DNA of 64,000 nt from an uncultured bacterium (GTDB taxonomy: Bacteria; CSSED10-310), in assembly GCA_964404285.1 (NCBI GenBank), contig CAYOJK010000003.1:69511-133510 (forward strand), in the 5' to 3' direction. Made by a program: the position numbers and the translations under genes. The notes beneath the pieces are model-generated. The model did not search any database, was not told the origin of the DNA, and saw only the letters and a program-made list of their open reading frames with translations. Positions 1 to 46,012 of the stretch are shown here, in pieces. The first letter of the stretch is position 1. Every line of letters starts with the position of its first letter.

Positions 1-749
1 GCATTGATATGTCGGAATTCATGGAAAAACACTCTGTTTCGCGAATGGTTGGATCGCCGCCTGGATATGTCGGCTATGGCGAAGGCGGTCAATTGACGGA
101 AAAAGTTCGCCGTCGTCCTTATTCCGTAGTTTTGCTTGATGAAATCGAGAAGGCCAGCCCGGAAATTTACAATATTTTGCTCCAAGTTATGGAAGAAGGA
201 CATCTAACTGATGGAATGGGTCGTCAGATAGATTTTCGTAACTGTATTCTGATCATGACTTCAAATATTGGAGCCAAGTTTATACGGACGGGAACTATGT
301 TGGGATTTACTCCGGATACTGAGGCTGATCGCAGATCATATTCAGCAATGAAGGAAACCGTGCTCCGAGAAATGAAGTCGACTTTCAGTCCGGAATTTCT
401 GAATAGGATCGATGAAGTTGTCGTGTTTCACCAATTGAGCAAAGATCATATTCAATCCATCATGGATTTGAATTTATCTAGGTTAAACAAACAGCTTCAA
501 GAATTGGGATTGGATATGGAAATTACACCTGCTGCACGAGATTGGCTGGTTGAAAAAAGTTATCAACCCGCTTATGGAGCTCGACCTGTCAAGCGATCTA
601 TACGCCGATATATTGAAAATCCGCTCTCAGAGGAATTGCTGAGGTTCCCTGATGGTATGAAGGATGCTTGTGTCAGGATATCACTAGAAAACGATCAATT
701 AAAATTCAGCATTGAAGTAAAAAACCAATGCGCGATTGTGAGCGAGTGA
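1..749 (+). CDS. Clp/Hsp100 family AAA+ ATPase (ClpA/ClpB/ClpC-like), C-terminal fragment; 5' end lies outside window
   Basis: Translation contains the D2 sensor/small domain typical of Clp ATPases (LLDEIEKA...[32 protein letters not shown]). The reading frame is open to position 1. Confidence 0.8.
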
Positions 750-863: not shown

Positions 864-3242
864 TTGACTGAAAATAATCATATTAGGCTTTTTGTTTTCA
901 TATTGTTATCGATAGGATTTGCTGCTCTAACGTTCGCAGACGAAATACCTGGGAGCTTAGCTGTCATCAGGGAAATTATCATTGTTGGAAACCAGACAAT
1001 CAGCGCAGATGTTATCGAACATTTGATAAAACTAACCCCGGGCGCTGAATTGATTGAAAAAGATATTCGGCGAGATGTTAAATCCTTATATGCTTCCGGC
1101 TTTTTTGAGGATATCTATGTTGAGCGTGAACCGATGGATGTGGGATATCGTCTGATTTTTACGGTCAAAGAATATCCAATTATACATGACATCGTGATTT
1201 CCGGCGCTTCATCTATTGGACTTAACACGTTACGTGATGAGCTGACTGTTTCGATCGGCGATCGATATAATCCGGTCATTATTCAACAGAGCGCTACAAA
1301 AATCGAACAAAAATATCGTGATAAAGGCTTTAATTTTGCTGTGGTCACGCCCCGTCTGACGCCGGCTCAACTTGGTCTTGCTTCGTTGATCTTTGATGTT
1401 GATGAAGGAACAAAATTGAAGATTCGAGAAGTCACGATTAGGGGAAACCAAAATATTTCGACAGGAACCCGGTTATGGGGATTGAAGTCAAAAATTAAAA
1501 AGAACCAAAAGTGGTGGTGGTTGTCCTTTATTACAGACTCTGGTGTTTTCAAGGAAGAAGAAATAAAGGAAGATATCAAAGGTTTGGAGCAGTATTACAA
1601 AAATCGAGGTTATCTTCGAGTATCAATCACTGAACCTCAAATTACGTTGAATCGACCTGAAAAACCTGGCGCCTCTGCGTCATTGAGCATTTCATACGAT
1701 ATAGATGAAGGCGATATTTACACACTTGGGCAATTGAATTATCAGGTTGCAGATTCATCGATCATACCTGAATCCATTGTGCGAAACGTCGTTGAGTCTA
1801 TTCGTCCGGAGAGTTATGAAAAATATTTTGGAGGTTCCGCTTTATGGGGAGAAGGACCACGATTTCAAACCGGACGCAGATACTCTTTAGCATTGGAAGA
1901 TCTTGCAATTAAAACACTTAGCGAAATATATGGCACGCTTGGTTATGTATATGTTTATATTTCTCCCGAGAAGAAAATTGATGACCGAAATAAAACAGTT
2001 GATATCACATTTTCGATCATTGAAGGTAAGCAGGCCTTTTTAAATCGTTTGGAGTTTATTGGTAATTATCGTACCAAGGATAGGGTTCTTAGACGCAACT
2101 TTATCATTCCTGAAGGAAGAGTCTTTAACACAGCACAACTTCAAAGCTCAATCGGGCGCTTACAATACCTGGCCTATATCGATAATGTCGTTCCTGATAT
2201 CGAACCTCAGGTCGATCCAACTAAAATTGACGTGATGATCTCACTGTCCGATAACCGGCAGACTGAAATACAGCTAGCTGGGGGCTATTCGGGATATAAC
2301 AAATTATACGGCACCTTGGGATTGTCGGAACACAATTTATTTGGTCGAGGTCAGGAGCTGAATCTTTCTGCTACCTCGGGCAGCAGAAGCGACACAGTAA
2401 GATTTTCATTTATTGATGAATGGGTGATGGACAGGCCGTATTATGGTTCAATCTCGGCGTGGAATTCTCGAGAAAGATATGATAATTCAACGCAACGAAA
2501 ACAGGGAGGTAGTGTATTTGTCGGTAGAGGGGTCGGCAGTCTGTTTTCTACCCGACTTGGATATACGTTTGAGCACAATAGAATATATGATATCTCAGCA
2601 TCGGCTGATGAAAATGTGAAAATGCTTGAAGGGACTCAGATCACATCCAGCTTGACTCATCTGTGGATATTGAACACGCTCAACAACAAATTGGATCCCA
2701 CAAAGGGTTGGTATGGAACGGTTTCTTTCCAATTTGCGGGAAGCATACTTGGGGGCGATAACGATTTCTACAAAACCTATCTGTCTGTATCAAAGTACTG
2801 GTCCTTGCCTAGGCGCTTGGTTTTTTCGCTACAGGGAAGATTTAATTACGGTGCAGGCTTAAGGGGTAAAGAATTGCCTTATTATGAACTCTTTCGTCTT
2901 GGAGGTCCCTACACTGTTCGAGGATATAAAGATTATGGAATTGGTCCGGTTGGTGAGGCTGGGTATGTTCTTGGTGGAAACAAATCCTTATTGTTATCAT
3001 CTGAATTACAAATTCCGATAGCTCGACCCTTAAAATTGGTTTTTTTTATTGATGCCGGCGATGCCTGGGATACAAAAGATCATGTTGATTTAAGGACTTT
3101 GAGACCTAGCACAGGATTTGAAGTTCGATTTTTTATGCCAGGCTTCGGGATTCCATTGCGGTTTATTTGGGGGTATAATCTGGACCCGCATGAAAATGAA
3201 AGTCGAAATGATTTTCAGTTTACCATGGGGCGGATGTTTTAA
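864..3242 (+). CDS. bamA: Outer membrane protein assembly factor BamA (Omp85; POTRA repeats plus C-terminal beta-barrel)
   Basis: 792 aa with an N-terminal signal peptide and POTRA-like repeats. The C-terminal barrel carries the motifs RGY..GGN...FFIDAGDAWD and a terminal aromatic residue. The gene sits in the classic bamA-skp-lpxD context. TTG start inferred. Confidence 0.9.
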   Translation: MTENNHIRLFVFILLSIGFAALTFADEIPGSLAVIREIIIVGNQTISADVIEHLIKLTPGAELIEKDIRRDVKSLYASGFFEDIYVEREPMDVGYRLIFTVKEYPIIHDIVISGASSIGLNTLRDELTVSIGDRYNPVIIQQSATKIEQKYRDKGFNFAVVTPRLTPAQLGLASLIFDVDEGTKLKIREVTIRGNQNISTGTRLWGLKSKIKKNQKWWWLSFITDSGVFKEEEIKEDIKGLEQYYKNRGYLRVSITEPQITLNRPEKPGASASLSISYDIDEGDIYTLGQLNYQVADSSIIPESIVRNVVESIRPESYEKYFGGSALWGEGPRFQTGRRYSLALEDLAIKTLSEIYGTLGYVYVYISPEKKIDDRNKTVDITFSIIEGKQAFLNRLEFIGNYRTKDRVLRRNFIIPEGRVFNTAQLQSSIGRLQYLAYIDNVVPDIEPQVDPTKIDVMISLSDNRQTEIQLAGGYSGYNKLYGTLGLSEHNLFGRGQELNLSATSGSRSDTVRFSFIDEWVMDRPYYGSISAWNSRERYDNSTQRKQGGSVFVGRGVGSLFSTRLGYTFEHNRIYDISASADENVKMLEGTQITSSLTHLWILNTLNNKLDPTKGWYGTVSFQFAGSILGGDNDFYKTYLSVSKYWSLPRRLVFSLQGRFNYGAGLRGKELPYYELFRLGGPYTVRGYKDYGIGPVGEAGYVLGGNKSLLLSSELQIPIARPLKLVFFIDAGDAWDTKDHVDLRTLRPSTGFEVRFFMPGFGIPLRFIWGYNLDPHENESRNDFQFTMGRMF

Positions 3243-5707: not shown

Positions 5708-6613
5708 TCATAGCTTTTGACCTAAAAAATAAACATCCGGGTGATTGATCTTACCTTTTAACGTTAATGGTATATACACGTCCGTGTTAAACGATTGATT
5801 TTCATCGAGCACATAGAGTCTCACCTGAAAATCGACAACTGAATCGGAAACAGGCATCCGCTGATTAATCGTTCCCAGAATCTGGACCATTGTATCAGAT
5901 TGCACAAGCTCAATTTTTTGGACTTGAATTTCTGAATGGTTCATTACAAAGTCGGCTTTTATGGTGTTAAATTCCAAAATTTCAAGATAATTCTTGAATT
6001 TGTCTGGTAGATTGAAATGTGTCTTATCAATTGTGATATGCACGGGTCCTTTATAGATGAAGTCTTGATTAAAATCAGCGATTAGTTCTGCTTTTCCCTG
6101 GAAGTTTCCTGAAGAAATCAAAAAGTCAGGATAATCTTCCAGTAGATATGATAGATCGATATCGTCCCAGTTCACGATAAGCTCTAATGGTTGTGGGCGT
6201 GTGGATAGAGCTGTTTTGATTACCCCATTGATAGCGCCGCCATAGGCGTTACTTTTCAGATTTAAGCCGGCTTTCCCTAAAAAAAGTGTACGAAAAGCGA
6301 TTGACACTGAAAGTCGCTCACCGTTAAAAATAACTCTCTCGCCCTTTATTGACTCAGTAGCTAATACCTGTTTTCCATCTTGTTTCAATAGTGGATCGAC
6401 TATAATGATTTTTCCGGGAAAAATAAGTTTAACATCGGAATAATCCAAAAGGATTCCTGCTCTGTCTTTTAAAAGAACGGAAATATGTTCTATTAGTCTT
6501 TTTTCAGGACGAAAGATCAGGGCAAAAAAATAGAAATTAGCTATTAAAATTATGATTGTGATAAAGATTTTTTTGAATATAGCGATAATACGTTGTTTCA
6601 TCCCAGACGTCAT
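5708..6613 (-). CDS. Hypothetical membrane-anchored periplasmic protein (single N-terminal TM helix)
   Basis: 301 aa with an N-terminal hydrophobic helix and no recognisable catalytic motif. Convergent with lpxA. Confidence 0.45.
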   Translation of the reverse strand: MTSGMKQRIIAIFKKIFITIIILIANFYFFALIFRPEKRLIEHISVLLKDRAGILLDYSDVKLIFPGKIIIVDPLLKQDGKQVLATESIKGERVIFNGERLSVSIAFRTLFLGKAGLNLKSNAYGGAINGVIKTALSTRPQPLELIVNWDDIDLSYLLEDYPDFLISSGNFQGKAELIADFNQDFIYKGPVHITIDKTHFNLPDKFKNYLEILEFNTIKADFVMNHSEIQVQKIELVQSDTMVQILGTINQRMPVSDSVVDFQVRLYVLDENQSFNTDVYIPLTLKGKINHPDVYFLGQKL

Positions 6614-6735: not shown

Positions 6736-7134
6736 ATGAACTATTCAAAACGTTTGTTTCATAGATTGATAATCTGCCTGTTTCTAAGTCTCTTTGGACT
6801 GATGTTGGTATCCTGTGCTTATAAAACTCCAAGAACTCCTGGGCACCTTGTTCGTTATGGCATCGAACTTGCCGAAGCAGGGTATTGGAAAGAGGCACGA
6901 AGGCAATGGGAGATGGTTTTGAGTGAAGATCCAGAAAACGTTGCCGCCCTGAATAATCTGGCGGTTGTCTCCGAATTGTTTACCGATTTTGCTGCTGCCC
7001 AGGAATTATTGGTAAAGGCAAGCGCTATTAAACCGAAAGATGCTCGAATAAAGCATAATATAAATGCACTTCAAAAGCGGATCGATGACCAGACTGGTCA
7101 GGAGAAAACAGATGAAAAAACGAAGAAACAATAA
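6736..7134 (+). CDS. Small TPR-repeat lipoprotein
   Basis: Signal peptide with lipobox (LMLVSC|AY), followed by TPR-like helical repeats. The internal Met at 6736 is preferred over the longer ORF start at 6685. Confidence 0.55.
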   Translation: MNYSKRLFHRLIICLFLSLFGLMLVSCAYKTPRTPGHLVRYGIELAEAGYWKEARRQWEMVLSEDPENVAALNNLAVVSELFTDFAAAQELLVKASAIKPKDARIKHNINALQKRIDDQTGQEKTDEKTKKQ

Positions 7135-7807
7135 AGCCAGGCTAGGGCGGATTTGTGTTCTATTGATATTCTTTCTATTCACAGGGTGTGCAGGTCACAA
7201 AAAAGTTATGGTTGAATACAGGCAGAAAGCGCTGACCGATGAACCGGAATCAAAAAAACTCCTCATCGGACCCTTTTATCAAAAATGTGAAAACTTTCAG
7301 GCTGTAACTGATTTTATAAGGTATATACAAAGAGTATTAGAAAAAGATTCGGTTTTTAAAAAAATAGAGGTTCGTTTTGATATCAGCAACTACTTGAGCG
7401 ATTTAAAGAGCACAGAAAAGCATCTTGAAAAATTGAAAGAAGTTGATTGGATCAAAACGTATGGTGATTCAGGCGCTGATTTTCTTTTAGCTGGAGCCAT
7501 TCAATACGACACAAAAGATCGTTCTGGGTATGATTCTGAATGGCAGGAAACGAGATCTGGTCTGAGAGCGCCTAAAAAAGTATACAAAGAACGACTTCTT
7601 TTCGACTTGGAATTAGGCTTGCTGTTGATCGATATGAAAACCGGAAAAATACTTTTTGAAGATATATATACCGACAAAGGCCAGACCGAGGGCCAGGCGG
7701 ATGAAATCGCAGTGTTTTTCGAATTGATCGATAAACAAATTCAGGCATTTCTGGATGAAATACTAGGTAAACAAACGCATACAAGAAGATATTTATTATA
7801 TGATTGA
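7112..7807 (+). CDS. Hypothetical lipoprotein
   Basis: MKKRRNNKARLGRICVLLIFFLFTGC|AG is a lipoprotein signal peptide. The start was chosen at the internal Met, which removes the large overlap with the upstream ORF. Confidence 0.5.
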   Translation: MKKRRNNKARLGRICVLLIFFLFTGCAGHKKVMVEYRQKALTDEPESKKLLIGPFYQKCENFQAVTDFIRYIQRVLEKDSVFKKIEVRFDISNYLSDLKSTEKHLEKLKEVDWIKTYGDSGADFLLAGAIQYDTKDRSGYDSEWQETRSGLRAPKKVYKERLLFDLELGLLLIDMKTGKILFEDIYTDKGQTEGQADEIAVFFELIDKQIQAFLDEILGKQTHTRRYLLYD

Positions 7808-7839: not shown

Positions 7840-10710
7840 ATGAAGATATGTCGGTTCAGATATATTTTGTTTGTGATCGGATCGATATTGTTGTTCACGT
7901 TTTCCATGGCAGATGCAAATGCTTTTGGAAAAAACAAAGTAACCTATTCCAAATTTGGCTGGAAAGTACATTCCACAGACCATTTTGAATTTTATTATTA
8001 TATGGACGAAACGGAATCGATGTTGGAGATTATCCGCTATTTTGAAACTGCTTATACACGAATATCTTCTGATCTTGGGACTGATCTTTCCGGGAAAATC
8101 CCAGTTATTCTTTACAGAACATATTCCGATTTTCAGCAAACAAATGTGTTGTCGGGTTTTATACCCACAGGTGTTGGAGGTTTTTCTGAGCTGCTGAAAA
8201 GAAGAATAGTGATACCGCTTCAAAATTCAAAAAAAGATCTAGAATCATTGATCAATCATGAATTAGTCCATTCATTTCAATTTGAAGTCTTTTTCCAGAA
8301 TCGTATCAGCAGAATTTCGGAGGTGCCGTTATGGATTATGGAGGGAATGGCAGAGCATTTATCAGCAGATTGGGACGCGACTGGACGAATGGTGTTGAGA
8401 GACGCTGTTATAAATGGATATGTGCCTGATCTGGAGAGGTTGAATACATTTGATTATCTGCCTAACCCGTATATGGGATATAAAATATCTCAATCAGCAA
8501 TTGATTTTTTACGAAAAGAATACGGCATGGATAAGTTTAGATCGCTGATGTGGGAAGTCAGAAAGACTCTCCGTTCTCGTGAATATATGCAAAATGCGGC
8601 TAAAGAGATTTACGGAATGACTCTAAGTGAAATATCGGCAAAATGGCAGAATGATTTAAGACGTCGTGTCATCGAACTCGAACGTCGACGCGAAAGTGTC
8701 GTAGAATTTGAAAAATCCGTGATGCCCTCTGAGCAATATTCCAGAAGGTTTTCTCCTGTTTTTGGTTTGGGTAATGAGGTCATTCATTTTGTTGAGGTTA
8801 CCCAGGATGGATTCAATATCCACACAGGAGCAGTGAAAGATCCGGATAAAAAACAAATGGACCTGTGCCTTACTTGTAGATTGAATAAACGTAAATACCG
8901 TGGAATAGTCACTGAAGGCAGACCTCTGTCAAGTTGTCTTGATGATGGGCGGCTGGTTTATATCAATAATTATGAAAACCGACATTTCATACAAATACTT
9001 GACCCGGCTGTCAAAGGCCTGACTAAAATTATTCAAATACCGGAAGATTCCCCGTCCTCACCGGCTTTCAGTCCGGATGGGCGTTTCGTCGCTTATGCTG
9101 CTTGGGTAGGCATGCAATCGGATATTTTTATAATGGATCTGGATACCGGAAAAACACGAAATGTAACTCAGGACCAACATGTGGATCGTACACCATATTG
9201 GTCTCCTGATGGTTCCTGGATTGTTTATTCTTCAGAAAGACAAGGACAATTCGATTTGATGTTGGTCAACGTTCATACAGGTCAATTCAGGCTATTGATT
9301 TCTGAGCAAGGAGACCAGATTACGCCTGCTTGGTCACCAGATGGGAAAAAAATTGTTTATATTTCGGATCAAATCGACGGTGTTCCAGATCCCCATATTC
9401 TGGATATGGAAACCATGCAATCCCACAGGCTGGCTGCACCTGTGACAGGGTGCATGACACCATCATTTTCTATAGATAGCCAAGATATTGTGCTTACGTT
9501 TTACGCCCAAGGAACTGAGAAAATCGTTGTTTTCCCTGCAGATAGAAGACCGGTTATACCCGCTGTCGCTGTTGATGCAGAAGAATTAGATGCTGATGGT
9601 GAGGCCTACTTTACATCGTTGAAACACGTCGATCCGCAGGCGCCATTGCCCCAATCAGCAAATGATTTGCAAAATGGCGATGTCAAGTTTCGTTTAATAC
9701 CGGATTATGCCGTTGGCATGATGGCTTATGGCACAAGTGGAGAGTTCTACCTGGAGGGAGGAGTCGTCCTGTCTGACATACTTGGAGATCATCGCATAGA
9801 GGTGATAGGAAGTAGAAGAGATAACCAGAGTGGTCTTATGGCCAAATATATGTATTTACGCCAAAGGATCAATTATGGGGCAGCTTTTATTCAGGATAGT
9901 GACTACTATTATGTGTTCAATATACTTAAAAATGAGTTTCAACGTGTCAGTTGGGATGAATATTGGGCATTGTACTATATGGAATATCCCTTTTCTACTT
10001 ATTACAGAGCGGATATCAGTGTTGGATATCAACATTTTGAATATGAAACGAGTGTTAGTGGGTTTAGAGACTTTAAAAGACAGTACGCCTACATAGAACC
10101 TGCTCTATCCGGCGATACCATAGAATATAAGTATATGGCGGGATATCCTGAGATCTATCGAGGTTGGAGATTCCGAGTAAGCGCTCAGATACCGTTGGAA
10201 ATGGGAGATTCTTTTGAGAGCTATTGGAATACTCACTATGATTTTCGTGAGTACATACCTGTCGGTAAAAGAACTGTTCTGGCTTTCAGGCAGTGGGGAG
10301 TGATGTCGCGTGGCCGAGATACGTTGTATTATGGAATTGGTGGACCAGGCACCATACGCGGCTATGGTTACAAGCAAATTGTTGGGAATAAAGTGGTTAT
10401 AGCCAATGCTGAATTCCGCTTTCCCATTTTGGATCATTTGATCTTTCCAGGAAACATTGGGTTTCATGGTTTTAGAGGAAAATTCTTCGTTGATGCCGGC
10501 GCCGCTTTGATCGATTCGGAATCAATGGAATGGCGATTTGACAACCCTAGAACACTGACTCGAGAAGGATCTTGGAACGCCTCTTATGGATGGGGTATCA
10601 ATTTCTGGTTGATTGGAGTCGAATGGCATTTCGAATGGGCGAGAAAAACGAATTTTAACAAGTCTTCGAGAGGCTGGTCTTATGAGTGGTCTATTCGGAG
10701 AAGTTTTTAG
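7840..10710 (+). CDS. Secreted multidomain protein: peptidase-MA-like zinc metalloprotease (HExxH...EGxAEH), TolB/PD40 beta-propeller repeats, and a C-terminal Omp85/Bac_surface_Ag-like beta-barrel
   Basis: Signal peptide, then HELVH followed about 25 aa later by WIMEGMAEHL (Peptidase_MA_2-like). Repeated SPDG..IVY/DIF PD40 motifs follow. The C-terminus aligns to the BamA barrel of this same window (GGPGTIRGY..GN..AEFRFPI..FFVDAGAA..) and ends in F. Confidence 0.7.
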   Translation: MKICRFRYILFVIGSILLFTFSMADANAFGKNKVTYSKFGWKVHSTDHFEFYYYMDETESMLEIIRYFETAYTRISSDLGTDLSGKIPVILYRTYSDFQQTNVLSGFIPTGVGGFSELLKRRIVIPLQNSKKDLESLINHELVHSFQFEVFFQNRISRISEVPLWIMEGMAEHLSADWDATGRMVLRDAVINGYVPDLERLNTFDYLPNPYMGYKISQSAIDFLRKEYGMDKFRSLMWEVRKTLRSREYMQNAAKEIYGMTLSEISAKWQNDLRRRVIELERRRESVVEFEKSVMPSEQYSRRFSPVFGLGNEVIHFVEVTQDGFNIHTGAVKDPDKKQMDLCLTCRLNKRKYRGIVTEGRPLSSCLDDGRLVYINNYENRHFIQILDPAVKGLTKIIQIPEDSPSSPAFSPDGRFVAYAAWVGMQSDIFIMDLDTGKTRNVTQDQHVDRTPYWSPDGSWIVYSSERQGQFDLMLVNVHTGQFRLLISEQGDQITPAWSPDGKKIVYISDQIDGVPDPHILDMETMQSHRLAAPVTGCMTPSFSIDSQDIVLTFYAQGTEKIVVFPADRRPVIPAVAVDAEELDADGEAYFTSLKHVDPQAPLPQSANDLQNGDVKFRLIPDYAVGMMAYGTSGEFYLEGGVVLSDILGDHRIEVIGSRRDNQSGLMAKYMYLRQRINYGAAFIQDSDYYYVFNILKNEFQRVSWDEYWALYYMEYPFSTYYRADISVGYQHFEYETSVSGFRDFKRQYAYIEPALSGDTIEYKYMAGYPEIYRGWRFRVSAQIPLEMGDSFESYWNTHYDFREYIPVGKRTVLAFRQWGVMSRGRDTLYYGIGGPGTIRGYGYKQIVGNKVVIANAEFRFPILDHLIFPGNIGFHGFRGKFFVDAGAALIDSESMEWRFDNPRTLTREGSWNASYGWGINFWLIGVEWHFEWARKTNFNKSSRGWSYEWSIRRSF

Positions 10711-12067
10711 TTAATTTCTGCAGAATAGATCGGCATAATTCTGGTAGAGATGGATCTCTGGCCCCCATTACTACAACCCAATCGCCTTTGTTGACGATCT
10801 TGGAAACAAGAAAAGGGATTGACCCTCTTTCAACAGCTACGGCCTCTTTGCCTCTAGAACGAATAGAGGCTGCCAGCTCATCGGAGCTCACCGTTTTTCC
10901 GGCTGTTCCTCCTGCATAGAATATCGGAGCCAGTATCAGCGTATCCTTCTCACGAAGCCCGTCGGCGAATTGATCAACGATATCCTCAAATAAAAAGCGT
11001 GTCGGCCCAAAACCATGTGGTTGATAAACATAGATGACTCGAGGACTTTGGGCGCCGGCGACTGACATGGTGGCATGTATTTTATCTGGATTATGAGCGA
11101 AATCATCGATTACAGTGATATCGTTTTGAGTTCCTATTAACTGAAAGCGACGCTGTATCCCTCGAAAACCCTCCAGCGCATCGATGCTTTCAGGTGATGA
11201 TCGACCCAGAAAACGTAGCAACGTATATGCAGCCAATGCATTCTCAAGATTATAATATCCGGGCAGATTTATTTGAAACCGTTTGCCTTCCAGCCGGCCA
11301 CCCGATGTCAAACCCTCAAAAAAAGGATCGACGATGTGAAAATCCGAATCTGTCGTAAAACCAAAACTCAGTCGTTTTCGCGCAAAACTTGATAGTCTGC
11401 TGCTCAAATGACATCGAGAATTGAATATCAATGTATCTTTGATATTGCCAATGTAGATTTTGAAAATCTCGGTTAATTCAGCAATAGAAAGGTGATCTTT
11501 GCTGATATTGGTCAATATCCCAATTTCAGGCTTATATTTTTTCAGACTTCCATCACTTTCATCTGCCTCGTATATTGCCCATGAGCTGTTCCCACAAAGA
11601 AATTCACTATCTTCTCCTAAATCTGTTATCCCAATAATCTTTGCTCCATTGATTACCGTTGGATCAAGTCCCGCTTTTTTCATTCCCCATGCACAAAAAC
11701 CTGTCACAGTGCTTTTGCCGGATGTTCCCGCTACGGCGATACACCGCATTGATTGAGTCAATTCATTCAACGCATCAGACCGATGAATGATGGGTATCCC
11801 TTTTTCTTGAGCAGCTTTGACATCTGGAATAGTTGATTCCACAGCGGTTGAAGCAACTACAAAATCCAAATCATGGTGAATACCCGATCCGTCTTGTGAA
11901 AATAACTGGATACCACTCGCTACCAATTCTTGGTAAAAATCAGGCCGATTGCCTTTGTCATGATCGCGATCAGAACCGCTCACACAATGCCCCATATTAT
12001 TCATTATTCTGGCGATACCATTCATTCCGGAACCGCCTATGCCGATAAAAAAAATGGATTGTTTCAT
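10691..12067 (-). CDS. Mur ligase, MurC/Mpl family (UDP-N-acetylmuramate--L-alanine ligase or murein peptide ligase)
   Basis: The N-terminus FFIGIGGSGMNGIA...GHCVSGSD matches the MurC/Mpl Rossmann start, followed by a Mur ligase central domain (GTSGKST). 458 aa. Confidence 0.8.
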   Translation of the reverse strand: MKQSIFFIGIGGSGMNGIARIMNNMGHCVSGSDRDHDKGNRPDFYQELVASGIQLFSQDGSGIHHDLDFVVASTAVESTIPDVKAAQEKGIPIIHRSDALNELTQSMRCIAVAGTSGKSTVTGFCAWGMKKAGLDPTVINGAKIIGITDLGEDSEFLCGNSSWAIYEADESDGSLKKYKPEIGILTNISKDHLSIAELTEIFKIYIGNIKDTLIFNSRCHLSSRLSSFARKRLSFGFTTDSDFHIVDPFFEGLTSGGRLEGKRFQINLPGYYNLENALAAYTLLRFLGRSSPESIDALEGFRGIQRRFQLIGTQNDITVIDDFAHNPDKIHATMSVAGAQSPRVIYVYQPHGFGPTRFLFEDIVDQFADGLREKDTLILAPIFYAGGTAGKTVSSDELAASIRSRGKEAVAVERGSIPFLVSKIVNKGDWVVVMGARDPSLPELCRSILQKLTKNFSE

Positions 12068-20829: not shown

Positions 20830-22755
20830 ATGACAAAAGAAAAACTGATGGTCAAAACGGGTATGTTCTGGGTAGCGCTAATAGCTGCGTTTTTCCGCTT
20901 TGGTCACCTTGTCATGCTTCATACGGATCCGGTTGCGGATATTCTAGTTTTAGACAGTTTGGCGTATGACACGACAGCAACACAAATAGTGAGCGGGAAT
21001 TTACCGCAAACCATATACTTCCAAGCGCCTTTTTACCCCTACTTCCTTGCTGCTTTTTACTCTATTTCAAACCATAATGTTCAACTGATTCGAATCATTC
21101 AAGCTTTTATCGATTTACTAACAATCATATTGGTTTATAGGATAACGCAGAATCTATTCAATTATGCAGCCGCTGTTTTAGCTGGATTGTCACTGGCAGT
21201 ATATCCCGTTTTAATTTTCCAAACAGGTTTGGTTTTAAAGACGACTTTGAATGTTTTCTTTGCCGCTTTAATGCTCTGGCTGATACTGGAACGTCATTTG
21301 AAAATTCCTATCAGTATCAGATTGATATTATTGGGGTTAACTAGCGGTTATGCCTCTGCAGCTCAAGGGTCGGTTCTTTTGCAGTTACCTTTTATAGTTT
21401 TATGGATTGTTATTGACGCTGATTGGAAAAAACCAAGCAAGTGGATTGTGCGCTTAGGTTTCTTTTTAATCGGCTTGATTATCAGTATCGGTCCTTTTAC
21501 ATGGCGAAATTACCGTATGAGTGGTCGATTTGTACTTTTGACATCTCAAGGTGGAGCAAATCTTTATTTGGGTAATAGTCCGTATTCTGACGGAACATCC
21601 AAAAGACCACCGCGTATTCGGGCAACTCCTGAGTTTGAAGAGGCGGATTTTCATCGTGAAGCAGAAAGAGCTGCAGGAAGAAAATTATCTCCGGAAGAAT
21701 CGGGAAAATACTGGCGAAATGAGGCGTTAAAATGGATTCGAGATAATCCGAAGGAAGCCTTGCTTTTACAGATACGGAAACTGGGTTTATTTTGGAATAG
21801 AGTTGAAATACCGGATAATTATGACTTCGATTTTTACCGTAGATATTCGATTTTTATCAGATACCCCCGATTTCCTTTTTGGTTTTTAGGATCGCTGGGT
21901 TTGACCGGAATGCTCTTCTTTATGAAAACGTGGAAGAAAACCTGGTTTTTATATCTATGGACTGTGTCTTATTGTCTTATCTGGGTAGCCTTTCATATCT
22001 ATTCCAGATACCGATTGCCTGTGGTAGTTTTTTTGGCGCCGTTCTTTGGCGCCTGCTGTTACGAAATATTTCTGTTGATAAAGTCTGGCCAACTTGGAAA
22101 ACTACTCAAAATTGGGATTGTTTTACTGATTTTTATTTTATTACAGGCGATTCCACTTACCTCTTATTCACACGCTCAGCCATTGTTCAATTTGGGAAGC
22201 GGCTTGACAAAATTGGGCAAAATGGAAGAAGCAAGGCAAGCTTATCTGGATGCGCTAGCCGAAAAACCAGATTATGAACCGGCGATGGTGAATCTAGGTA
22301 AACTTGCTTGGAATCTTGGAAATCATTATGAAGCAGGTTCATGGTGGATAAAGACTTTGAAATTGTACCCTAATTCGGTTGAAGCGCATTCAAATCTTGG
22401 TACTTTTTTAGCTATGAACAGCAATATGCCGGCGGCTAAGGAGCATTTCGAAAAAGCCGTGGAAATCCAACCTTATTATTCGCTTGGTTGGCTTCATTTA
22501 GCTCAAGCAGAACAGAGTCTGGAAAATTGTGCAAAAGCGATCATTGCTTTTGACAAGGTATTGGATTTGGAACCTTCAGATGTTCAGGCTCTTTATGGTA
22601 AGGCAATGTGTTTAGAATCATTGGGTCAAACAGAGTCAGCTATTGAAACCTGGCGAATGTATGTACTGGAAGCGGAGCATAAGGTTGAAGAGTCCACCTA
22701 TATTAAGGAAGCTGTCCGGCGGCTTCAATTGTTGAGTTCAGATGCCGATTATTAA
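20830..22755 (+). CDS. Polytopic membrane glycosyltransferase-like protein (PMT_2/ArnT-like GT-C fold) with C-terminal TPR repeats
   Basis: About 11 predicted TM helices in the N-terminal 430 aa, with aromatic-rich loops. The C-terminal roughly 200 aa are TPR repeats (AYLDALAEKPDYEPAMVNLGKLAW...). Confidence 0.6.
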   Translation: MTKEKLMVKTGMFWVALIAAFFRFGHLVMLHTDPVADILVLDSLAYDTTATQIVSGNLPQTIYFQAPFYPYFLAAFYSISNHNVQLIRIIQAFIDLLTIILVYRITQNLFNYAAAVLAGLSLAVYPVLIFQTGLVLKTTLNVFFAALMLWLILERHLKIPISIRLILLGLTSGYASAAQGSVLLQLPFIVLWIVIDADWKKPSKWIVRLGFFLIGLIISIGPFTWRNYRMSGRFVLLTSQGGANLYLGNSPYSDGTSKRPPRIRATPEFEEADFHREAERAAGRKLSPEESGKYWRNEALKWIRDNPKEALLLQIRKLGLFWNRVEIPDNYDFDFYRRYSIFIRYPRFPFWFLGSLGLTGMLFFMKTWKKTWFLYLWTVSYCLIWVAFHIYSRYRLPVVVFLAPFFGACCYEIFLLIKSGQLGKLLKIGIVLLIFILLQAIPLTSYSHAQPLFNLGSGLTKLGKMEEARQAYLDALAEKPDYEPAMVNLGKLAWNLGNHYEAGSWWIKTLKLYPNSVEAHSNLGTFLAMNSNMPAAKEHFEKAVEIQPYYSLGWLHLAQAEQSLENCAKAIIAFDKVLDLEPSDVQALYGKAMCLESLGQTESAIETWRMYVLEAEHKVEESTYIKEAVRRLQLLSSDADY

Positions 22756-34239: not shown

Positions 34240-35145
34240 ATGTCATCTGTTTTGATTGTCGGTTCGGTTGCATTAGATTCTGTTGAAACCCCTTATGGAA
34301 AAAAAAGTGATATGCTGGGAGGCTCAGCTACTTATTCCAGTCTGGCAGCCTCTCATTTTGCTTCAGTGCGTTTGGTGGCGGTGGTGGGAAATGATTTTCC
34401 GGCTGAGTGCCGTCAATTACTAGAGTCAAGAAAAATAAATCTAACCGGTCTGCAAGTAGTTGAAGGGAATACCTTTCGCTGGAGTGGTGAATATCATACC
34501 GGTAAAATGGGTGATGCCATCACGCTTGATACTCAGTTGAATGTGTTTCAAGACTTTAACCCGATGATTCCACCTGAATATCAAGATTCTGAATGGGTTT
34601 TTCTTGGAAATATTGATCCGGCTCTTCAACTTAATGTGTTGTCTCAAATTCCAAACCCTAAGCTGATTGCCTTGGATACGATGAACTTTTGGATTGAAAA
34701 TCCAGATAATCGCTTACCGGAAGTTCTTAAAAAAGTTGATCTGTTGATTATCAATGAAGGTGAACTAAAGTTGTTGACGGGTAAATCTGATTTGCGTAAA
34801 GGTGTGGAAATAGCTATGGGTCTAGGCCCCAAAATTCTAGTGGTCAAACTAGGGAAATATGGCGCCGTGCTATTTTATGATAACACGTGGTTTTTTGCTC
34901 CAGCGCACCCGCAATCCGATTGTATCGATCCGACGGGCGCTGGAGATTCTTTTGCGGGTGGCTTGATGGGTTCGTTGGCACGTGATGGTGAGGTAACCCC
35001 GGAAACATTGCGTAGAGCCATGGTGTTTGGATCTGTCGTGGCGTCGTTCAATATCAATGATTTTGGACCCTGGAAGCTTGCAAACCTGACCAGCGAACAA
35101 ATCATGGATCATTATGAAGATTTTAAAGATATTGTTGCCTTTTAA
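34240..35145 (+). CDS. PfkB-family carbohydrate/nucleoside kinase
   Basis: Ribokinase-like fold with the C-terminal DPTGAGDSFAGG motif. Confidence 0.8.
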   Translation: MSSVLIVGSVALDSVETPYGKKSDMLGGSATYSSLAASHFASVRLVAVVGNDFPAECRQLLESRKINLTGLQVVEGNTFRWSGEYHTGKMGDAITLDTQLNVFQDFNPMIPPEYQDSEWVFLGNIDPALQLNVLSQIPNPKLIALDTMNFWIENPDNRLPEVLKKVDLLIINEGELKLLTGKSDLRKGVEIAMGLGPKILVVKLGKYGAVLFYDNTWFFAPAHPQSDCIDPTGAGDSFAGGLMGSLARDGEVTPETLRRAMVFGSVVASFNINDFGPWKLANLTSEQIMDHYEDFKDIVAF

Positions 35146-37538
35146 TAATCTTGTAACGCGTGCTTTAAAACATCTGTAATTCGCGAAACAGGAATAAAAG
35201 TTATTTTATTTCGTACATACTCCGGTACATCTTCAAGATCTGTCATGTTTCGTTCAGGCAGAATAATTGTCTCAACATCAGATCGATAGGCTGCAAGACT
35301 CTTTTCTTTGATTCCACCAACCGGCAGAACATCACCACGCAAAGTGATTTCACCAGTCATAGCTACCTTGCGTTTAGGCATTTTGTTCGTCAATAACGAG
35401 ACCAACGCAGTCGCAATAGTTACTCCAGCAGACGGTCCATCTTTTGGAACAGCGCCTTCAGGAACATGGATATGAATATCGGTTTTTTCAAAAAAATCGG
35501 GTTCAATACCCAATTCCTCAGCCATCGATCTAATAAAAGACAGAGCCGCCTGCGCAGATTCTTTCATCACATCACCCAGTTGCCCTGTCAAAATTAATTG
35601 TTTTTTTCCCGCCATACGTGTGGCTTCGACAAATAAAACGTCACCGCCGTAAGGTGTATACGCTAATCCAATAGCGATTCCTGGTTGGTGTGAGCGCAGG
35701 TCGGTTTCTGAGAAAAATTTCGGCGGCCCTAAAAATGAATGAAGTTTAGATTTGGTTATTATGGTGACTGACTTTTTGCCTTCCACAACTTTGCGTGCTG
35801 TAGCCCGACAGATTTTCGAGATTTCTCGTTCAAGATTTCTGACCCCGGCTTCAAGCGTATACTCTCGGATGATACGTCTGACTGCTTCGGTCTGAAATCG
35901 GAGATGTTTACCTTTTAAACCATGCTCAAACAGTTGACGGGGTATCAAATGATTTTTCGCTATCTCGAGCTTTTCTTCGATGGTATAGCCAGCCAGTCGT
36001 AGCACCTCCATTCTATCACGCAGCGCTGGTGGGATTGTTTCAAGAATATTTGCCGTTGTTATGAACATGACTTTTGAAAGGTCAAAATTGACGTTCAAAT
36101 AGTGATCGGCAAATGAATTATTCTGCTCAGGGTCAAGTACCTCTAGAAGGGCAGAGGCTGGATCACCACGAAAATCCATGCCGATTTTATCCACTTCATC
36201 CAGCATAAAGACAGGATTGTTCGAGCCGGCTTTACGAATACCCTGAATTATCCTTCCAGGTAATGCTCCAATATAGGTGCGTCTATGACCACGAATTTCA
36301 GCTTCGTCTTTGACGCCTCCAACAGACATACGAAAAAATTTCCTGTTCATAGCTCTGGCAATACTTTTTCCAAGAGACGTTTTTCCGGTTCCTGGAGGGC
36401 CGACAAAACACAGGATCGGTCCTTTCATATCGGGTTTTAGATGTCTGACAGCAATATATTCGACAATACGCTGCTTGATTTTTTCAAGTCCGAAGTGGTC
36501 TTCATCTAGGATGGTCTGCACTTTAATTGTATCCAAAGAATCTTTAGTTTTTACATTCCATGGCAATTCTAAAATCCAGTCAAGATATGTTCTTGAGACG
36601 GTATATTCTGCGGCTGCCGGCGGCATTCGTTTAAGCCTGTCAAGTTCTTTTGTAGCGGCTTCATGTGCCTCCTCTGGAAGTTGTGCTTTGGTAATTTGTT
36701 CCGCTAAATCCTCAATTTCATGGGTTCTGTCATCTGTTTCACCAAGCTCCTTTTGAAGCGCTCGCATCTGTTGACGAATAAAATATTCTTTCTGCGATTT
36801 ATCCATCTCATCCTTGATCTGATTTTGAATTCGATTACCCAGTTCTTGGATTTCTATCTCACGGTTTAACAAAATATTCAGCTTTTTGAGCCTGGCTCCG
36901 ATATCAATGATCTCCAGTAATTCCTGACGTTCTTCAAGTGCAAGGTTTAAACTGGATGAAATAATATCCGCCAACTTACCAGGATCGGTGATGTTTTGAA
37001 CAATAGAATTCAGCTCCTTGGGAAGATTGGCAGACATTGTCACCAGTTTTTGAAATAGATCTTTAATATTTCTACTGATTGCATCTTGACGTCTTGTTTT
37101 CTTTACAGTGTCGAAAACTGGCGAAATTTTGGCGAGAAAATAAGGTTCTGAAATAAGGAATTCTTCGACACGTATTCTACAAATGGCTTCGATCATGATT
37201 CTAATCGCATCATCAGGCATTTTGATCATTTTTATAATCTGTGCTGCTACTCCAATAGAATAGATGTCTTCAAAATCAGGGTTTTCCTGTTCAGGATATT
37301 TTTGAGCGACAAGGCCTAGTATTCGATTACCTTCCAGTATTTCCTGTATCATCTGAACAGATTTTTCTCGCGCTACCAAAAGAGGAATCACCATTGTGGG
37401 ATAAATAACGGTTCCCCTAATTGGTAAAATGGGGAGCAATTCAGGTATCTTTTTTCCGTTGACTTCAAACAGAATTTCCTGATCGTTGTTTTCTGAAGTC
37501 TCTGTTGTCATTTTTGATTCTAAGTTTTGTTCTGTCAT
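35142..37538 (-). CDS. lon: ATP-dependent protease Lon (La)
   Basis: Lon N-domain, AAA+ module ([15 protein letters not shown]), and the Lon proteolytic Ser-Lys dyad region ([15 protein letters not shown]). 798 aa. Confidence 0.95.
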
Positions 37539-45495: not shown

Positions 45496-45570
<75 letters not shown>

Positions 45571-45595
45571 TTGAAAGGATGTTGGAAGTCGATGC

Positions 45596-45669
<74 letters not shown>

Positions 45670-45721
45670 TCGATGTGAATGACGGTGTACCACCGGTATC
45701 TCGGAGGTTTGAAAAGATGAT

Positions 45722-45796
45722 GGTGAGTGTAGCTCAGTTGGTTAGAGCGCCTGACTGTGGATCAGGAGGTCGAGGGTTCAAGTCCCTTCACTCACC
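45722..45796 (+). tRNA. tRNA-His (anticodon GTG) with encoded G-1
   Basis: Extra 5' G pairs with discriminator C. Acceptor GTGAGTG/CACTCAC. Anticodon loop CTGTGGA. Confidence 0.85.
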
Positions 45797-45805
45797 CTGT
45801 ATGGA

Positions 45806-45828
45806 GCCGAAGAAGCGTTGTCTTCGGC
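45806..45828 (+). other. Perfect 8-bp stem / 7-nt loop hairpin (GCCGAAGA-agcgttg-TCTTCGGC) followed by TTTGT, between tRNA-His and tRNA-Arg(TCG)
   Basis: Direct reading of the sequence. It could be a weak intrinsic terminator or a processing structure inside the tRNA operon. Confidence 0.4.
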
Positions 45829-45837
45829 TTTGTCTAT

Positions 45838-45911
<74 letters not shown>

Positions 45912-45930
45912 TATGAAAAACGGATTACCT

Positions 45931-46012
45931 GCGAGGATGGCGGAATTGGCAGACGCGCTGGACTTAGGATCCAGTGCCGCAAGGTGTGGGGGTTCAACTC
46001 CCCCTCCTCGCA
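45931..46012 (+). tRNA. tRNA-Leu (anticodon TAG), class II with long variable arm
   Basis: Acceptor GCGAGGA/TCCTCGC, anticodon loop CTTAGGA, long extra arm (GTGCCGCAAGGTGT), T-arm GGGGGTTCAACTCCCCC. Confidence 0.85.

What the first reader, a model, noticed from the sequence alone, without database searches (positions are those of the whole stretch)
7840..10710. Peptidase-MA zinc metalloprotease + TolB-like PD40 propeller fused to an Omp85-type outer-membrane beta-barrel
This is a 956-aa secreted protein. Its N-terminal domain carries HELVH plus a downstream EGMAEH, the Peptidase_MA_2 pattern. Its middle has several PD40 (TolB-like) blades. Its last 150 aa or so align motif-for-motif with the BamA barrel encoded 5 kb upstream (GGP.T.RGY, GN, E.R.PI, FF(I/V)DAG.A, C-terminal Phe). 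Omp85-superfamily barrels normally carry POTRA domains. A barrel whose periplasmic partner is a protease plus a propeller suggests one of two roles: a specialised OM-anchored quality-control or processing protease, or a new Omp85 subclass that couples substrate capture (propeller) and cleavage to membrane insertion or secretion. The gene also lies right next to the bamA-skp-lpxD-lpxA envelope cluster.
Basis: partly seen in the sequence, partly recalled or inferred. Interest (0 to 1): 0.75.

Follow-up and report, generated by a model that had tools for sequence, protein, structure and literature searches.

The report
Known-type peptidase–propeller–Omp85 barrel protein
The gene is real and encodes an outer-membrane protein that joins a zinc peptidase and a TolB-like propeller to a BamA-like barrel. 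This architecture was catalogued in 2014 as the 'WD40-Omp85' subfamily, it is widespread, and nobody yet knows what it does.

Summary
Window 7840..10710 (+) is one 956-aa ORF with four parts:
- a signal peptide;
- a gluzincin peptidase domain (HELVH, E168, Y214);
- a six-bladed TolB-type propeller;
- a complete 16-strand Omp85 barrel with conserved loop-6 RGY and FxDxG motifs and a C-terminal Phe.

The gene is not a chimera. More than 100 full-length homologues share the architecture, with invariant zinc ligands, and at least 584 species-representative genomes encode a relative.

The "new Omp85 subclass" reading fails. Heinz & Lithgow (2014) defined this WD40-Omp85 subfamily, and their supplement records its aminopeptidase-like N-domain. 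It has never been characterised experimentally.

The bamA adjacency is lineage-specific (2 of 84 loci). What is conserved is a three-gene unit: a small TPR protein, then a protein with the PelC/LptE/TolB-N fold, then this gene. Both partners were found in 54 of 67 loci, and both are lipoproteins here.

The best reading is a periplasm-facing, outer-membrane-anchored metallopeptidase complex. Its substrate is unknown. This is a new member of a known, uncharacterised kind, of moderate interest.

The parts
6736..7134 (+). Gene 1 of the conserved unit: a small TPR protein (132 aa), predicted to be a lipoprotein here (MNYSKRLFHRLIICLFLSLFGLMLVSC, lipobox LVSC)
   Evidence: Pfam TPR_19, TPR_2 and TPR_14 hits. 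NCBIfam gives only generic TPR similarity. A GGGAGGA Shine-Dalgarno sequence lies about 10 nt upstream of the ATG at 6736. A homologue lies upstream of the main gene in 62/67 loci.
7112..7807 (+). Gene 2 of the conserved unit: a 231-aa envelope protein with the PelC/LptE/TolB-N/FlgT-type fold, predicted to be a lipoprotein here (lipobox FTGC). Its start overlaps the stop of gene 1.
7840..10710 (+). Main gene: a 956-aa peptidase-propeller-Omp85 protein, a member of the WD40-Omp85 subfamily
7840..7923 (+). Signal peptide, residues 1-28 (MKICRFRYILFVIGSILLFTFSMADANA, then FGKN)
   Evidence: Read from the sequence: a basic n-region, a hydrophobic h-region and an A-x-A site. The model has a helix at 2-21 with low pLDDT at 18-28. 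Conservation begins at F29-G30-x-N32-K33. No dedicated signal-peptide predictor was run.
7924..8709 (+). Gluzincin (clan MA) zinc-peptidase domain, residues about 29-290
   Evidence: Pfam Peptidase_MA_2, 40.2 bits. The profile hits M1 aminopeptidase 3cia (E 6e-4) and M9 collagenases. This domain subfamily is almost always N-terminal in proteins of about 900-1200 aa: 111 of the best 150 representatives.
8257..8271 (+). HELVH zinc-binding and catalytic motif (H140, E141, H144)
   Evidence: Invariant in 118/118 and 116/116 homologues. Coordinates checked.
8341..8346 (+). E168-G169 of the WxxEG motif; E168 is the predicted third zinc ligand
   Evidence: W165, E168 and G169 are invariant. It aligns with the WLNEG glutamate of M1 aminopeptidase 3cia.
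8479..8481 (+). Y214, an invariant tyrosine; candidate transition-state-stabilising residue
   Evidence: Invariant in 116/116. It aligns with the P-Y tyrosine of M1 aminopeptidase 3cia. The catalytic role of that tyrosine in M1 enzymes comes from background knowledge.
8722..9549 (+). Six-bladed TolB-type PD40 beta-propeller, residues about 295-570
9550..9693 (+). Linker with little regular structure, residues about 571-618, between propeller and barrel; no POTRA domain
   Evidence: Secondary structure of the model. No PF07244 hit.
9694..10707 (+). 16-strand Omp85-type beta-barrel, residues about 619-956
10339..10365 (+). Loop-6 motif GGPGTIRGY, the Omp85 (V/I)RG(Y/F) hallmark
   Evidence: R840 is invariant and G834 and G841 are each 115/116. 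It pairs with BamA GGPYTVRGY in BLASTP.
10486..10500 (+). FVDAG, the strand-13 (F/G)xDxG Omp85 hallmark
   Evidence: F883 is invariant and D885 is 115/116. It aligns with BamA FIDAG.
10705..10707 (+). C-terminal Phe (beta-signal-type terminus)
   Evidence: F in 106/116 homologues, Y in 8 and W in 1.

Best explanation
This is a member of the published but uncharacterised WD40-Omp85 subfamily, from a bacterium of candidate phylum CSSED10-310. It most likely works as an outer-membrane-anchored zinc metallopeptidase that faces the periplasm.

Steps shown here:
- An N-terminal signal sequence.
- A gluzincin domain with an invariant HExxH, a third-ligand Glu and a Tyr.
- A six-bladed TolB-type propeller.
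- A short linker and a complete 16-strand Omp85 barrel with the loop-6 RGY and strand-13 FxDxG lock and a C-terminal Phe.
- A conserved operon with two envelope proteins: a small TPR protein and a protein with the PelC/LptE/TolB-N fold.

Steps inferred:
- After Sec export, BAM inserts the barrel. Both barrel termini lie on the periplasmic side, as in every solved Omp85 protein, so the roughly 590-residue peptidase-propeller module hangs under the outer membrane.
- The propeller binds or filters unfolded or extended polypeptide segments and presents them to the peptidase. TolB binds disordered peptides in this way, and the propellers of tricorn and S9 peptidases gate substrates.
- The TPR protein and the LptE/PelC-like protein are subunits or adaptors on the inner face of the outer membrane. 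In this organism both are lipoproteins with Ala at +2.
- The likely role is processing or quality control of envelope proteins at the outer membrane, analogous in function to BepA at BAM. The substrate is unknown.
For: Architecture.

Barrel:
- Foldseek finds BamA barrels over about 390-420 columns.
- R840 (loop 6), E858 and P862 (strand 12) and F883 (strand 13) are invariant; G841, R860 and D885 are 115/116 and N856 is 108/116; 106/116 end in Phe.

Peptidase, predicted competent:
- H140, E141, H144, W165, E168, G169 and Y214 are invariant in 116-118 homologues at only about 27% overall identity.
- They align with the catalytic residues of M1 aminopeptidase and M9 collagenases.
- The peptidase subfamily is essentially dedicated to this architecture.

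Not an artefact: more than 100 full-length homologues and at least 584 species-representative genomes.

Operon: the TPR gene is present in 62/67 loci, the PelC/LptE-fold gene in 58/67 (median gap 18.5 nt) and both in 54/67. In the window the genes overlap or are tightly spaced.

Topology precedent: the non-POTRA enzymatic domain of the Omp85 protein PlpD 'resides exclusively in the periplasm' (PMC11116518).

Functional analogy: BepA is a periplasmic Zn-metallopeptidase that acts on stalled OMPs at BAM (PMC8423444, PMC13478230).

A canonical BamA with 5 POTRA domains is also present, so this protein is not the cell's main insertase.
Against: - There is no experimental datum for any member of the subfamily.
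- No substrate is known.
- Topology is inferred, not shown.
- The strict conservation of the loop-6 and strand-13 lock and of several barrel residues is more than a passive anchor would seem to need. This leaves room for a working barrel.
- Physical association with the two co-encoded proteins rests on synteny alone.
- Their lipoboxes are present in only a minority of lineages (8/58 and 27/62).
- Whether the enzyme is an exo- or an endopeptidase is unresolved. The Glu at the GxMEN-like position is only 83/116 conserved.
Confidence: 0.55

Rival explanations
1. The barrel is a working Omp85 machine. On this reading the protein is an insertase or translocase in which the propeller replaces POTRA as the client dock. 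The peptidase would process or clear the client, coupling cleavage to insertion or export. The LptE/PelC-like partner could then act as a plug or funnel for the barrel.
For: The Omp85 functional hallmarks are nearly invariant across very divergent members: loop-6 RGY, strand-13 FxDxG and strand-12 NxExRxP. The last strand in the model is short (947-952) against a 12-residue first strand, as at the BamA seam. The partner's fold class includes LptE, which sits in the LptD barrel, and PelC, which works with the PelB barrel. Heinz & Lithgow suggested that these proteins resemble a BamA-BamB fusion (PMC4104836).
Against: There is no POTRA domain. The propeller is six-bladed and TolB-like, not the eight-bladed BamB type (BamB description in PMC11358297). 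The same hallmarks are also present in Omp85 proteins with other roles, so they do not discriminate. No candidate cargo gene is conserved next to it: the neighbours beyond the three-gene unit differ between loci. PlpD shows that an Omp85 scaffold can serve as something other than a translocase.
Confidence: 0.17
2. Surface display or secretion. On this reading the barrel exports its own N-terminal peptidase-propeller module to the cell surface or the medium, as in the original type Vd model. There it would act as an extracellular protease for nutrition or for interactions with other cells.
For: Heinz & Lithgow raised this possibility for Omp85 proteins with enzymatic domains. M9 collagenases, among the nearest solved relatives of the peptidase domain, are secreted enzymes.
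Against: The prototype for this model, PlpD, was shown to keep its enzymatic domain in the periplasm (PMC11116518). A module of roughly 590 residues with a closed six-bladed propeller would have to cross unfolded. The co-encoded partners have folds typical of proteins on the periplasmic face of the outer membrane. In the window they have lipoboxes with Ala at +2, which points to the inner leaflet of the outer membrane by the E. coli Lol rule (inference). No cleavage site or autotransporter-like linker helix is evident in the 571-618 linker.
Confidence: 0.1
3. A Tol-Pal-like envelope tether or remodelling module. Between them, the three genes supply a TolB propeller (in the main protein), a TolB-N-like domain (gene 2) and a CpoB-like TPR protein (gene 1). 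An Omp85 barrel would take the place of Pal as the outer-membrane anchor. The peptidase would trim peptidoglycan-linked or Pal/OmpA-type proteins during division or envelope maintenance.
Against: The TolB score is far below the equivalog cut-off (118.7 vs 343). Gene 2 resembles PelC, HpaA and FlgT more closely than TolB-N. The TPR protein shows only generic TPR similarity. No tolQRA or pal genes are linked in the loci examined. The Mur ligase neighbour is not conserved (1/84 loci).
Confidence: 0.1
4. Artefact: a chimeric assembly, or a read-through fusion of adjacent genes.
For: None found.
Against: An identical 956-aa protein exists, and a full-length member of its >=90%-identity cluster was seen on 28 contigs of up to 235 kb. 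Homologues at 87% down to 25% identity keep the full length and all three domains. Composition is smooth across the gene. The single-chain model is confident (pTM 0.85).
Confidence: 0.01

Closest known systems
WD40-Omp85 ('WD40-like') subfamily of the Omp85/TpsB superfamily (Heinz & Lithgow 2014, PMC4104836)
   Same: PD40 (PF07676) repeats N-terminal to a PF01103 barrel, with no POTRA domain. TolB is the best structural match for the propeller. The paper's Table S3 records an aminopeptidase- or collagenase-like N-terminal domain, which matches here.
   Different: Nothing differs in architecture. This copy comes from a candidate phylum (CSSED10-310) that was not sampled in 2014. The paper does not discuss the peptidase domain in its main text, and in the passages I retrieved it does not mention the two conserved upstream genes. 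I could not fetch its UniProt members for a direct alignment.
BamA / TamA (Omp85 insertases)
   Different: No POTRA domains. Only 13-15% identity in the structural superpositions and 23% in the local BLASTP alignment. NCBIfam Omp85_fam scores 28.4 against a cut-off of 200. A canonical BamA with 5 POTRA domains is encoded 4.6 kb upstream. The NCBI name 'BamA/TamA family outer membrane protein' given to the 87%-identical homologue overstates the relationship.
TolB (Tol-Pal system)
   Different: The chain lacks the TolB N-terminal domain. TIGR02800 scores 118.7 against a cut-off of 343. Here the propeller is fused to a peptidase and a membrane barrel. A protein with a TolB-N-like fold is encoded separately, just upstream.
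PlpD / patatin-like Omp85 proteins (PMC11116518)
   Same: An Omp85 barrel carrying an N-terminal hydrolytic enzyme domain. It sets the precedent that such a domain stays in the periplasm and that the Omp85 scaffold has been re-used for new functions.
   Different: PlpD has a patatin lipase and one POTRA domain. This protein has a metallopeptidase and a propeller, with no POTRA domain.
BepA (M48 Zn-metallopeptidase with a TPR domain, acting at BAM; PMC8423444, PMC13478230)
   Same: A periplasmic HExxH metallopeptidase that works at an Omp85 barrel with the help of a TPR module. It is the closest functional analogy for a quality-control role.
   Different: It belongs to a different peptidase family: there is no M48 hit here and the top hit is Peptidase_MA_2. 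BepA is soluble and docks onto BamA. Here the peptidase is covalently fused to its own barrel and the TPR module is a separate small protein.
M1 aminopeptidases and M9 collagenases (gluzincins, clan MA)
   Same: HExxH, a downstream Glu in a W-x-x-E-G context, and a Tyr all align.
   Different: The E-values are only 6e-4 to 0.17. There are 23 residues between the second His and the Glu, against 18 in M1 enzymes. The GxMEN exopeptidase motif is not clearly present. The other M1 and M9 domains are missing.
LptE, PelC, CsgG, FlgT and TolB-N class of outer-membrane-associated proteins (for the co-encoded gene 2)
   Different: There is no significant sequence match to any of them for the window copy. 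It carries extra long beta-hairpins at residues 124-193. Its oligomeric state and binding partner are unknown.

Membership tests
WD40-Omp85 subfamily (Heinz & Lithgow 2014) | PD40/WD40-like repeats (PF07676) N-terminal to an Omp85 barrel (PF01103) | tested here: met
   PD40 80.2 bits at residues about 395-517, and PF01103 47.1 bits at 700-921. This matches the Table S2 domain profiles.
WD40-Omp85 subfamily (Heinz & Lithgow 2014) | No POTRA domain | tested here: met
   No PF07244 or PF08479 hit at E<=1. The linker 571-618 has almost no regular structure.
WD40-Omp85 subfamily (Heinz & Lithgow 2014) | Propeller structurally closest to TolB, plus an aminopeptidase- or collagenase-like N-terminal domain (Table S3) | tested here: met
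WD40-Omp85 subfamily (Heinz & Lithgow 2014) | Sequence clustering with the paper's listed members (for example H1XQ58, D0MEQ5, B0VIY2) | not tested
   UniProt sequences could not be fetched with these tools. Membership rests on identical architecture and identical structural matches.
Omp85 superfamily | 16-stranded beta-barrel | tested here: met
   16 strands in the model. 291/314 residues of the TamA barrel superpose at rmsd 2.7 A. This is a prediction, not an experiment.
Omp85 superfamily | Loop-6 (V/I)RG(Y/F) motif and strand-13 (F/G)xDxG motif | tested here: met
   IRGY at 839-842 and FVDAG at 883-887. R840 and F883 are invariant; G841 and D885 are each 115/116.
Omp85 superfamily | [quoted passage not shown] | tested here: not met
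   No POTRA hit. This is shared with the other published non-POTRA subfamilies, so it excludes the classical definition but not the superfamily.
BamA/TamA family (the name NCBI gives the 87% homologue) | POTRA arm plus a barrel that scores above family cut-offs | tested here: not met
   NF047779 Omp85_fam scores 28.4 against a cut-off of 200. There is no POTRA domain. A true BamA lies at 864..3242.
TolB (TIGR02800) | Full-length match above the equivalog cut-off, including the TolB N-terminal domain | tested here: not met
   118.7 bits against a cut-off of 343. Only profile positions 157-355 are matched.
Clan MA(E) gluzincin metallopeptidases / Pfam Peptidase_MA_2 | HExxH plus a downstream Glu as third zinc ligand, conserved in orthologues | tested here: met
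   PF13485 40.2 bits against a cut-off of 32.4. H140, E141, H144 and E168 are invariant in 118/118.
Clan MA(E) gluzincin metallopeptidases / Pfam Peptidase_MA_2 | Zinc-dependent peptidase activity | not testable with these tools
   Needs biochemistry.
M1 aminopeptidase family | GxMEN exopeptidase motif and HExxH-x18-E spacing | tested here: not met
   The equivalent segment reads G-V-G-G-F-S-E, with the Glu in only 83/116. There are 23 residues between the second His and the Glu. The match to 3cia is only E 6e-4.
Type Vd secretion / PlpD family | Patatin-like domain plus POTRA plus Omp85 barrel | tested here: not met
   No PF01734 or PF07244 hit.
BepA / M48 peptidases | Peptidase_M48 domain fused to a TPR domain | tested here: not met
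   No M48 hit. The TPR module is a separate gene. BepA is an analogy only.

The most novel reading that the evidence does not exclude
The conserved trio could be a previously unrecognised outer-membrane machine. The trio is a small TPR protein, a protein with the PelC/LptE/TolB-N fold, and the peptidase-propeller-Omp85 protein. In this machine the Omp85 barrel would do real work with its LptE/PelC-like partner, for example opening laterally to extract stalled beta-barrel proteins or exporting peptide products. The fused propeller-gated metallopeptidase would degrade or mature the client. That would be a self-contained triage or processing system for the outer membrane, independent of BAM and BepA. 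It would be widespread in Acidobacteriota, Gemmatimonadota, Latescibacterota, Poribacteria and candidate phyla.
Probability: 0.2. Interest if true: 0.7.

Novelty: new member of a known kind. Interest (0 to 1): 0.38.

Why it matters
Omp85 proteins are central to building the outer membranes of diderm bacteria and organelles. Nearly all functional knowledge comes from the POTRA-bearing members: BamA, TamA, TpsB, Sam50 and Toc75.

The non-POTRA subfamilies are explicitly flagged in recent literature as uncharacterised and 'intriguing targets' (PMC11116518). A barrel permanently fused to a conserved, apparently active zinc peptidase and a TolB-type propeller could reveal one of two things. It could be a new way to do proteolysis at the outer membrane, or a new use of the Omp85 scaffold.

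This window adds no new architecture. The analysis does contribute three practical points:
- The catalytic residues and Omp85 hallmarks are invariant across the family.
- The bamA linkage is incidental.
- The gene travels with two specific envelope proteins, which are obvious candidates for complex partners.

It also shows that current annotations of the family are inconsistent. They include 'BamA/TamA family', 'PD40 domain-containing', 'Tol biopolymer transport system component', 'peptidase MA family' and 'hypothetical'.

Tried and rejected
- **Chimera or mis-assembly.** Rejected on independent contigs and on more than 100 full-length homologues.
- **bamA-skp-lpxD-lpxA linkage as a family trait.** Rejected. 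The BamA POTRA region was found in the flanks of only 2/84 loci, and LpxD/LpxA in 2/84. It is absent from the Poribacteria locus (L002) and from L003 and L004.
- **Heinz & Lithgow's 'Metallo' Omp85 subfamily.** This is not the same thing. It carries PF00149, a calcineurin-like phosphoesterase domain.
- **BamA-BamB fusion idea.** Judged weak, because the propeller is six-bladed and TolB-like.
- **Literature searches for experimental work.** Omp85+PD40+peptidase returned 0 papers, PD40+Omp85 returned 0, and 'WD40-Omp85' returned only 2, neither experimental.
- **Foldseek against afdb50.** The library was not available, so I could not list UniProt models with the same three-domain fold.
- **Promoter and terminator scan.** The counts were not above chance. 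One plausible -35/-10 pair lies at 6685-6713, upstream of the TPR gene.
- **NCBIfam on the two partner proteins.** Nothing specific was found.


Full report
**1. The observation**

Window 7840..10710 (+) is a single 956-codon ORF with an ATG start. An AAGGAG ribosome-binding site lies 7 nt upstream. Base composition is smooth across it.

Pfam finds three domains, each above its curated gathering score:
- Peptidase_MA_2, residues 71-273, 40.2 bits against 32.4.
- PD40 repeats, 80.2 bits against 20.9.
- The Omp85 barrel PF01103, residues 700-921, 47.1 bits against 24.

No POTRA hit appears even at E<=1. NCBIfam sees a partial TolB propeller (residues 370-568, 118.7 bits, far below the 343-bit equivalog cut-off) and a weak Omp85_fam match.

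BLASTP of the C-terminal 356 residues against the window's own BamA (864..3242) gives a 202-column alignment at 23% identity and E 8e-8. It pairs the RGY, FxDAG and terminal-Phe motifs.

The N-terminus reads as a Sec signal peptide ending ANA, followed by FGKN. Family-wide conservation starts exactly at F29-G30. No dedicated signal-peptide predictor was available.

**2. Structure**

I built an AlphaFold2 model from a 116-sequence alignment. It is confident, with mean pLDDT 87.4 and pTM 0.85. It shows four parts:
- An alpha/beta-plus-helical peptidase domain, residues 42-281.
- 23 strands at residues 302-566, which is a six-bladed propeller.
- A linker with little regular structure, residues 567-619.
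- 16 long strands from 620 to 952, with the RGY-bearing loop between strands 11 and 12 as in BamA.

So the barrel is a complete Omp85 barrel of about 340 residues, not only the 'last 150 aa'. No solved structure belongs to this family.

**3. Is it real and conserved?**

An identical protein is on record. One full-length member of its 90%-identity cluster occurs on 28 contigs of up to 235 kb. The nearest named relatives, at 56-63% identity, are from 'candidate division CSSED10-310', a candidate phylum.

More than 100 full-length homologues of about 950-1050 aa were returned. Most are at 26-30% identity and come from Thermoanaerobaculia and other Acidobacteriota, Poribacteria and unclassified bacteria.

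These include Gemmatimonadetes, Latescibacterota, Holophagales and others.

In 118 full-length homologues H140, E141, H144, W165, E168 and G169 are invariant. The alignment also shows invariant Y214, R187 and A189 in the peptidase, and invariant R840, E858, P862 and F883 in the barrel. G841, R860 and D885 are each 115/116. Mean column identity is 30%.

**4. The peptidase**

A profile of the N-terminal domain hits the M1 cold-active aminopeptidase 3cia (E 6e-4) and M9 collagenases (E 0.002-0.17). HExxH, the W-x-x-E-G glutamate and the invariant Tyr214 align with their counterparts. In M1 enzymes that Tyr stabilises the transition state; this last point is background knowledge.

The domain therefore looks catalytically competent. 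Whether it is an exo- or an endopeptidase is open. The segment at the GxMEN position reads G-V-G-G-F-S-E, and its Glu is kept in only 83/116 sequences.

I searched the domain alone against 1.84 billion representatives. That gave 469 clusters at E<=1e-30. In 111 of the best 150 the domain is N-terminal in a protein of at least 880 aa. This peptidase lineage is essentially dedicated to this architecture.

**5. Genomic context**

The bamA-skp-lpxD-lpxA block is indeed upstream, and the arrangement recurs in a CSSED10-310 genome (L001). It is absent from a Poribacteria locus and from two further distant loci, L003 and L004. Across 84 loci a BamA POTRA region lies in the flanks of only two. The linkage is lineage-specific and says little about function.

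What is conserved is a three-gene unit on one strand. I tested loci with at least 2 kb of upstream sequence by iterative profile search:

| Gene | Window coordinates | Found upstream |
|---|---|---|
| Small TPR protein | 6736..7134 | 62/67 loci |
| Protein of about 230-265 aa with no Pfam hit | 7112..7807 | 58/67 loci, median gap 18.5 nt |
| Both together | | 54/67 loci |

In the window the first two genes overlap by 23 nt, and the second ends 32 nt before the main ATG.

Both window copies have lipoboxes, LVSC and FTGC, each followed by Ala. In most other lineages a plain signal peptide seems to replace the lipobox (8/58 and 27/62 lipobox-like).

This is a fold class of envelope proteins that sit at the outer membrane, and several of them partner barrels or form rings. 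The TPR protein shows only generic TPR similarity.

**6. How it most likely works**

Shown here:
- The domain composition.
- The invariant catalytic and Omp85 hallmark residues.
- The 16-strand barrel and six-bladed propeller, as predictions.
- The conserved operon.
- A separate canonical BamA in the same window.

Inferred:
- After Sec export, BAM inserts the barrel. Both of its termini face the periplasm, so the peptidase-propeller module hangs beneath the outer membrane.
- The propeller captures or gates extended polypeptide segments for the peptidase.
- The two co-encoded proteins are subunits or adaptors on the inner face of the outer membrane.

The most economical function is processing or quality control of envelope proteins. 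It is functionally analogous to BepA, a periplasmic Zn-metallopeptidase that acts on stalled OMPs at BAM (PMC8423444, PMC13478230). BepA belongs to a different peptidase family.

I put about 0.55 on this overall picture. The architecture and subfamily assignment are near certain. My other estimates are about 0.75 for topology, about 0.8 for active peptidase, about 0.6 for a complex with the partners and about 0.35 for the quality-control role.

The rivals, with confidence:
- A working Omp85 barrel coupled to proteolysis, 0.17.
- Surface display or secretion, 0.10.
- A Tol-Pal-like tether or remodelling module, 0.10.
- Artefact, 0.01.

I could not inspect model coordinates, so domain packing and lumen state remain unchecked.

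**7. Comparison with what is known**

Heinz & Lithgow (2014, PMC4104836) divided the Omp85/TpsB superfamily into ten subfamilies. One is 'WD40-Omp85', with PF07676 repeats plus PF01103 and a TolB-like propeller. They describe it as reminiscent of a BamA-BamB fusion.

Their Table S3 has a column headed 'best aminopeptidase hit' for this cluster. It lists tricorn-interacting factor F3, ERAP1 and ColG at about 99% Phyre2 confidence. The peptidase-like N-domain was therefore already seen, though it is not discussed in the main text.

Later papers refer to 'WD40 and peptidase domains' (PMC11358297). They call these subfamilies not well characterised and 'intriguing targets' (PMC11116518). I found no experimental study.

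The paper's 'Metallo' subfamily is a different thing, carrying PF00149.

The protein meets every tested defining feature of WD40-Omp85. The one untested feature is direct clustering with the paper's accessions. It fails the membership tests for BamA/TamA, TolB, M1 aminopeptidases, PlpD and BepA.

**8. Verdict**

The 'new Omp85 subclass' claim and the bamA-linkage argument are not supported.

This is a new member, from a poorly sampled candidate phylum, of a known but functionally unexplored kind. The added value of the analysis is the conserved three-gene module and the invariance of the catalytic and barrel hallmarks. Together these make the subfamily a well-defined experimental target.

Interest is 0.38. 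The most novel reading not excluded is a self-contained outer-membrane triage or processing machine in which the barrel does real work. I give that about 0.2 probability, and about 0.7 interest if true.

Noticed in passing
window 6736..7134 and 7112..7807 (+); also L002 6492-7918, L003 6340-7967, L004 6928-7984: Two small envelope-protein genes always precede the main gene: a TPR protein, then a protein with the PelC/LptE/TolB-N fold. Both are found in 54/67 loci. In the window both carry lipoboxes. The passages of the 2014 subfamily paper that I retrieved do not mention them.
   Followed up: yes
family-wide (alignment A1; table): Precomputed Pfam calls and source names for homologues are inconsistent. 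Many lack a PF13485 or PF01103 call even though HExxH...E and the RGY and FxDxG motifs are invariant. Their names range from 'BamA/TamA family' to 'Tol biopolymer transport system component' and 'hypothetical'.
   Followed up: partly
loci: The lipobox on the two partner proteins is present in only a minority of lineages (8/58 and 27/62 by a simple pattern). Elsewhere the N-termini look like ordinary signal peptides. My ORF starts may be over-extended, so these counts are rough.
   Followed up: partly
L001 9484-9981 (protein P0138, 165 aa): In the CSSED10-310 genome the orthologue of the middle gene is annotated as 165 aa, against about 231 aa elsewhere. It lacks the signal or lipobox region in the alignment. 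A mis-called start or a local frameshift is likely.
   Followed up: no
window 5708..6613 (-): The divergently oriented 301-aa ORF passes the NCBIfam cut-off for the Leptospira-type T2SS protein GspN (TIGR04411, 60.7 bits against 50). It has only a weak AsmA Pfam hit. No other T2SS genes were checked.
   Followed up: no
window 10691..10710: The 3' end of the main gene overlaps the 3' end of the convergent Mur ligase gene (10691..12067, -) by 20 nt. No convincing terminator lies between them.
   Followed up: no
window 45496..46013 (+): A cluster of five tRNA genes: Pro-TGG, Arg-TCT, His-GTG, Arg-TCG and Leu-TAG.
   Followed up: no
window 52803..63990 (+): A run of very large genes. One is 985 aa with NHL repeats, one is a 789-aa DUF2298 membrane protein, and one is 1924 aa combining PMT_2, DUF2298 and an NHL propeller. 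A PMT_2+TPR protein also lies at 20830..22755. These may form a glycosyltransferase-related envelope system.
   Followed up: no
window 9..749 (+) and 35142..37538 (-): The 3' end of ClpB lies just upstream of bamA, an arrangement also seen in L001. A Lon protease is encoded elsewhere in the window.
   Followed up: no
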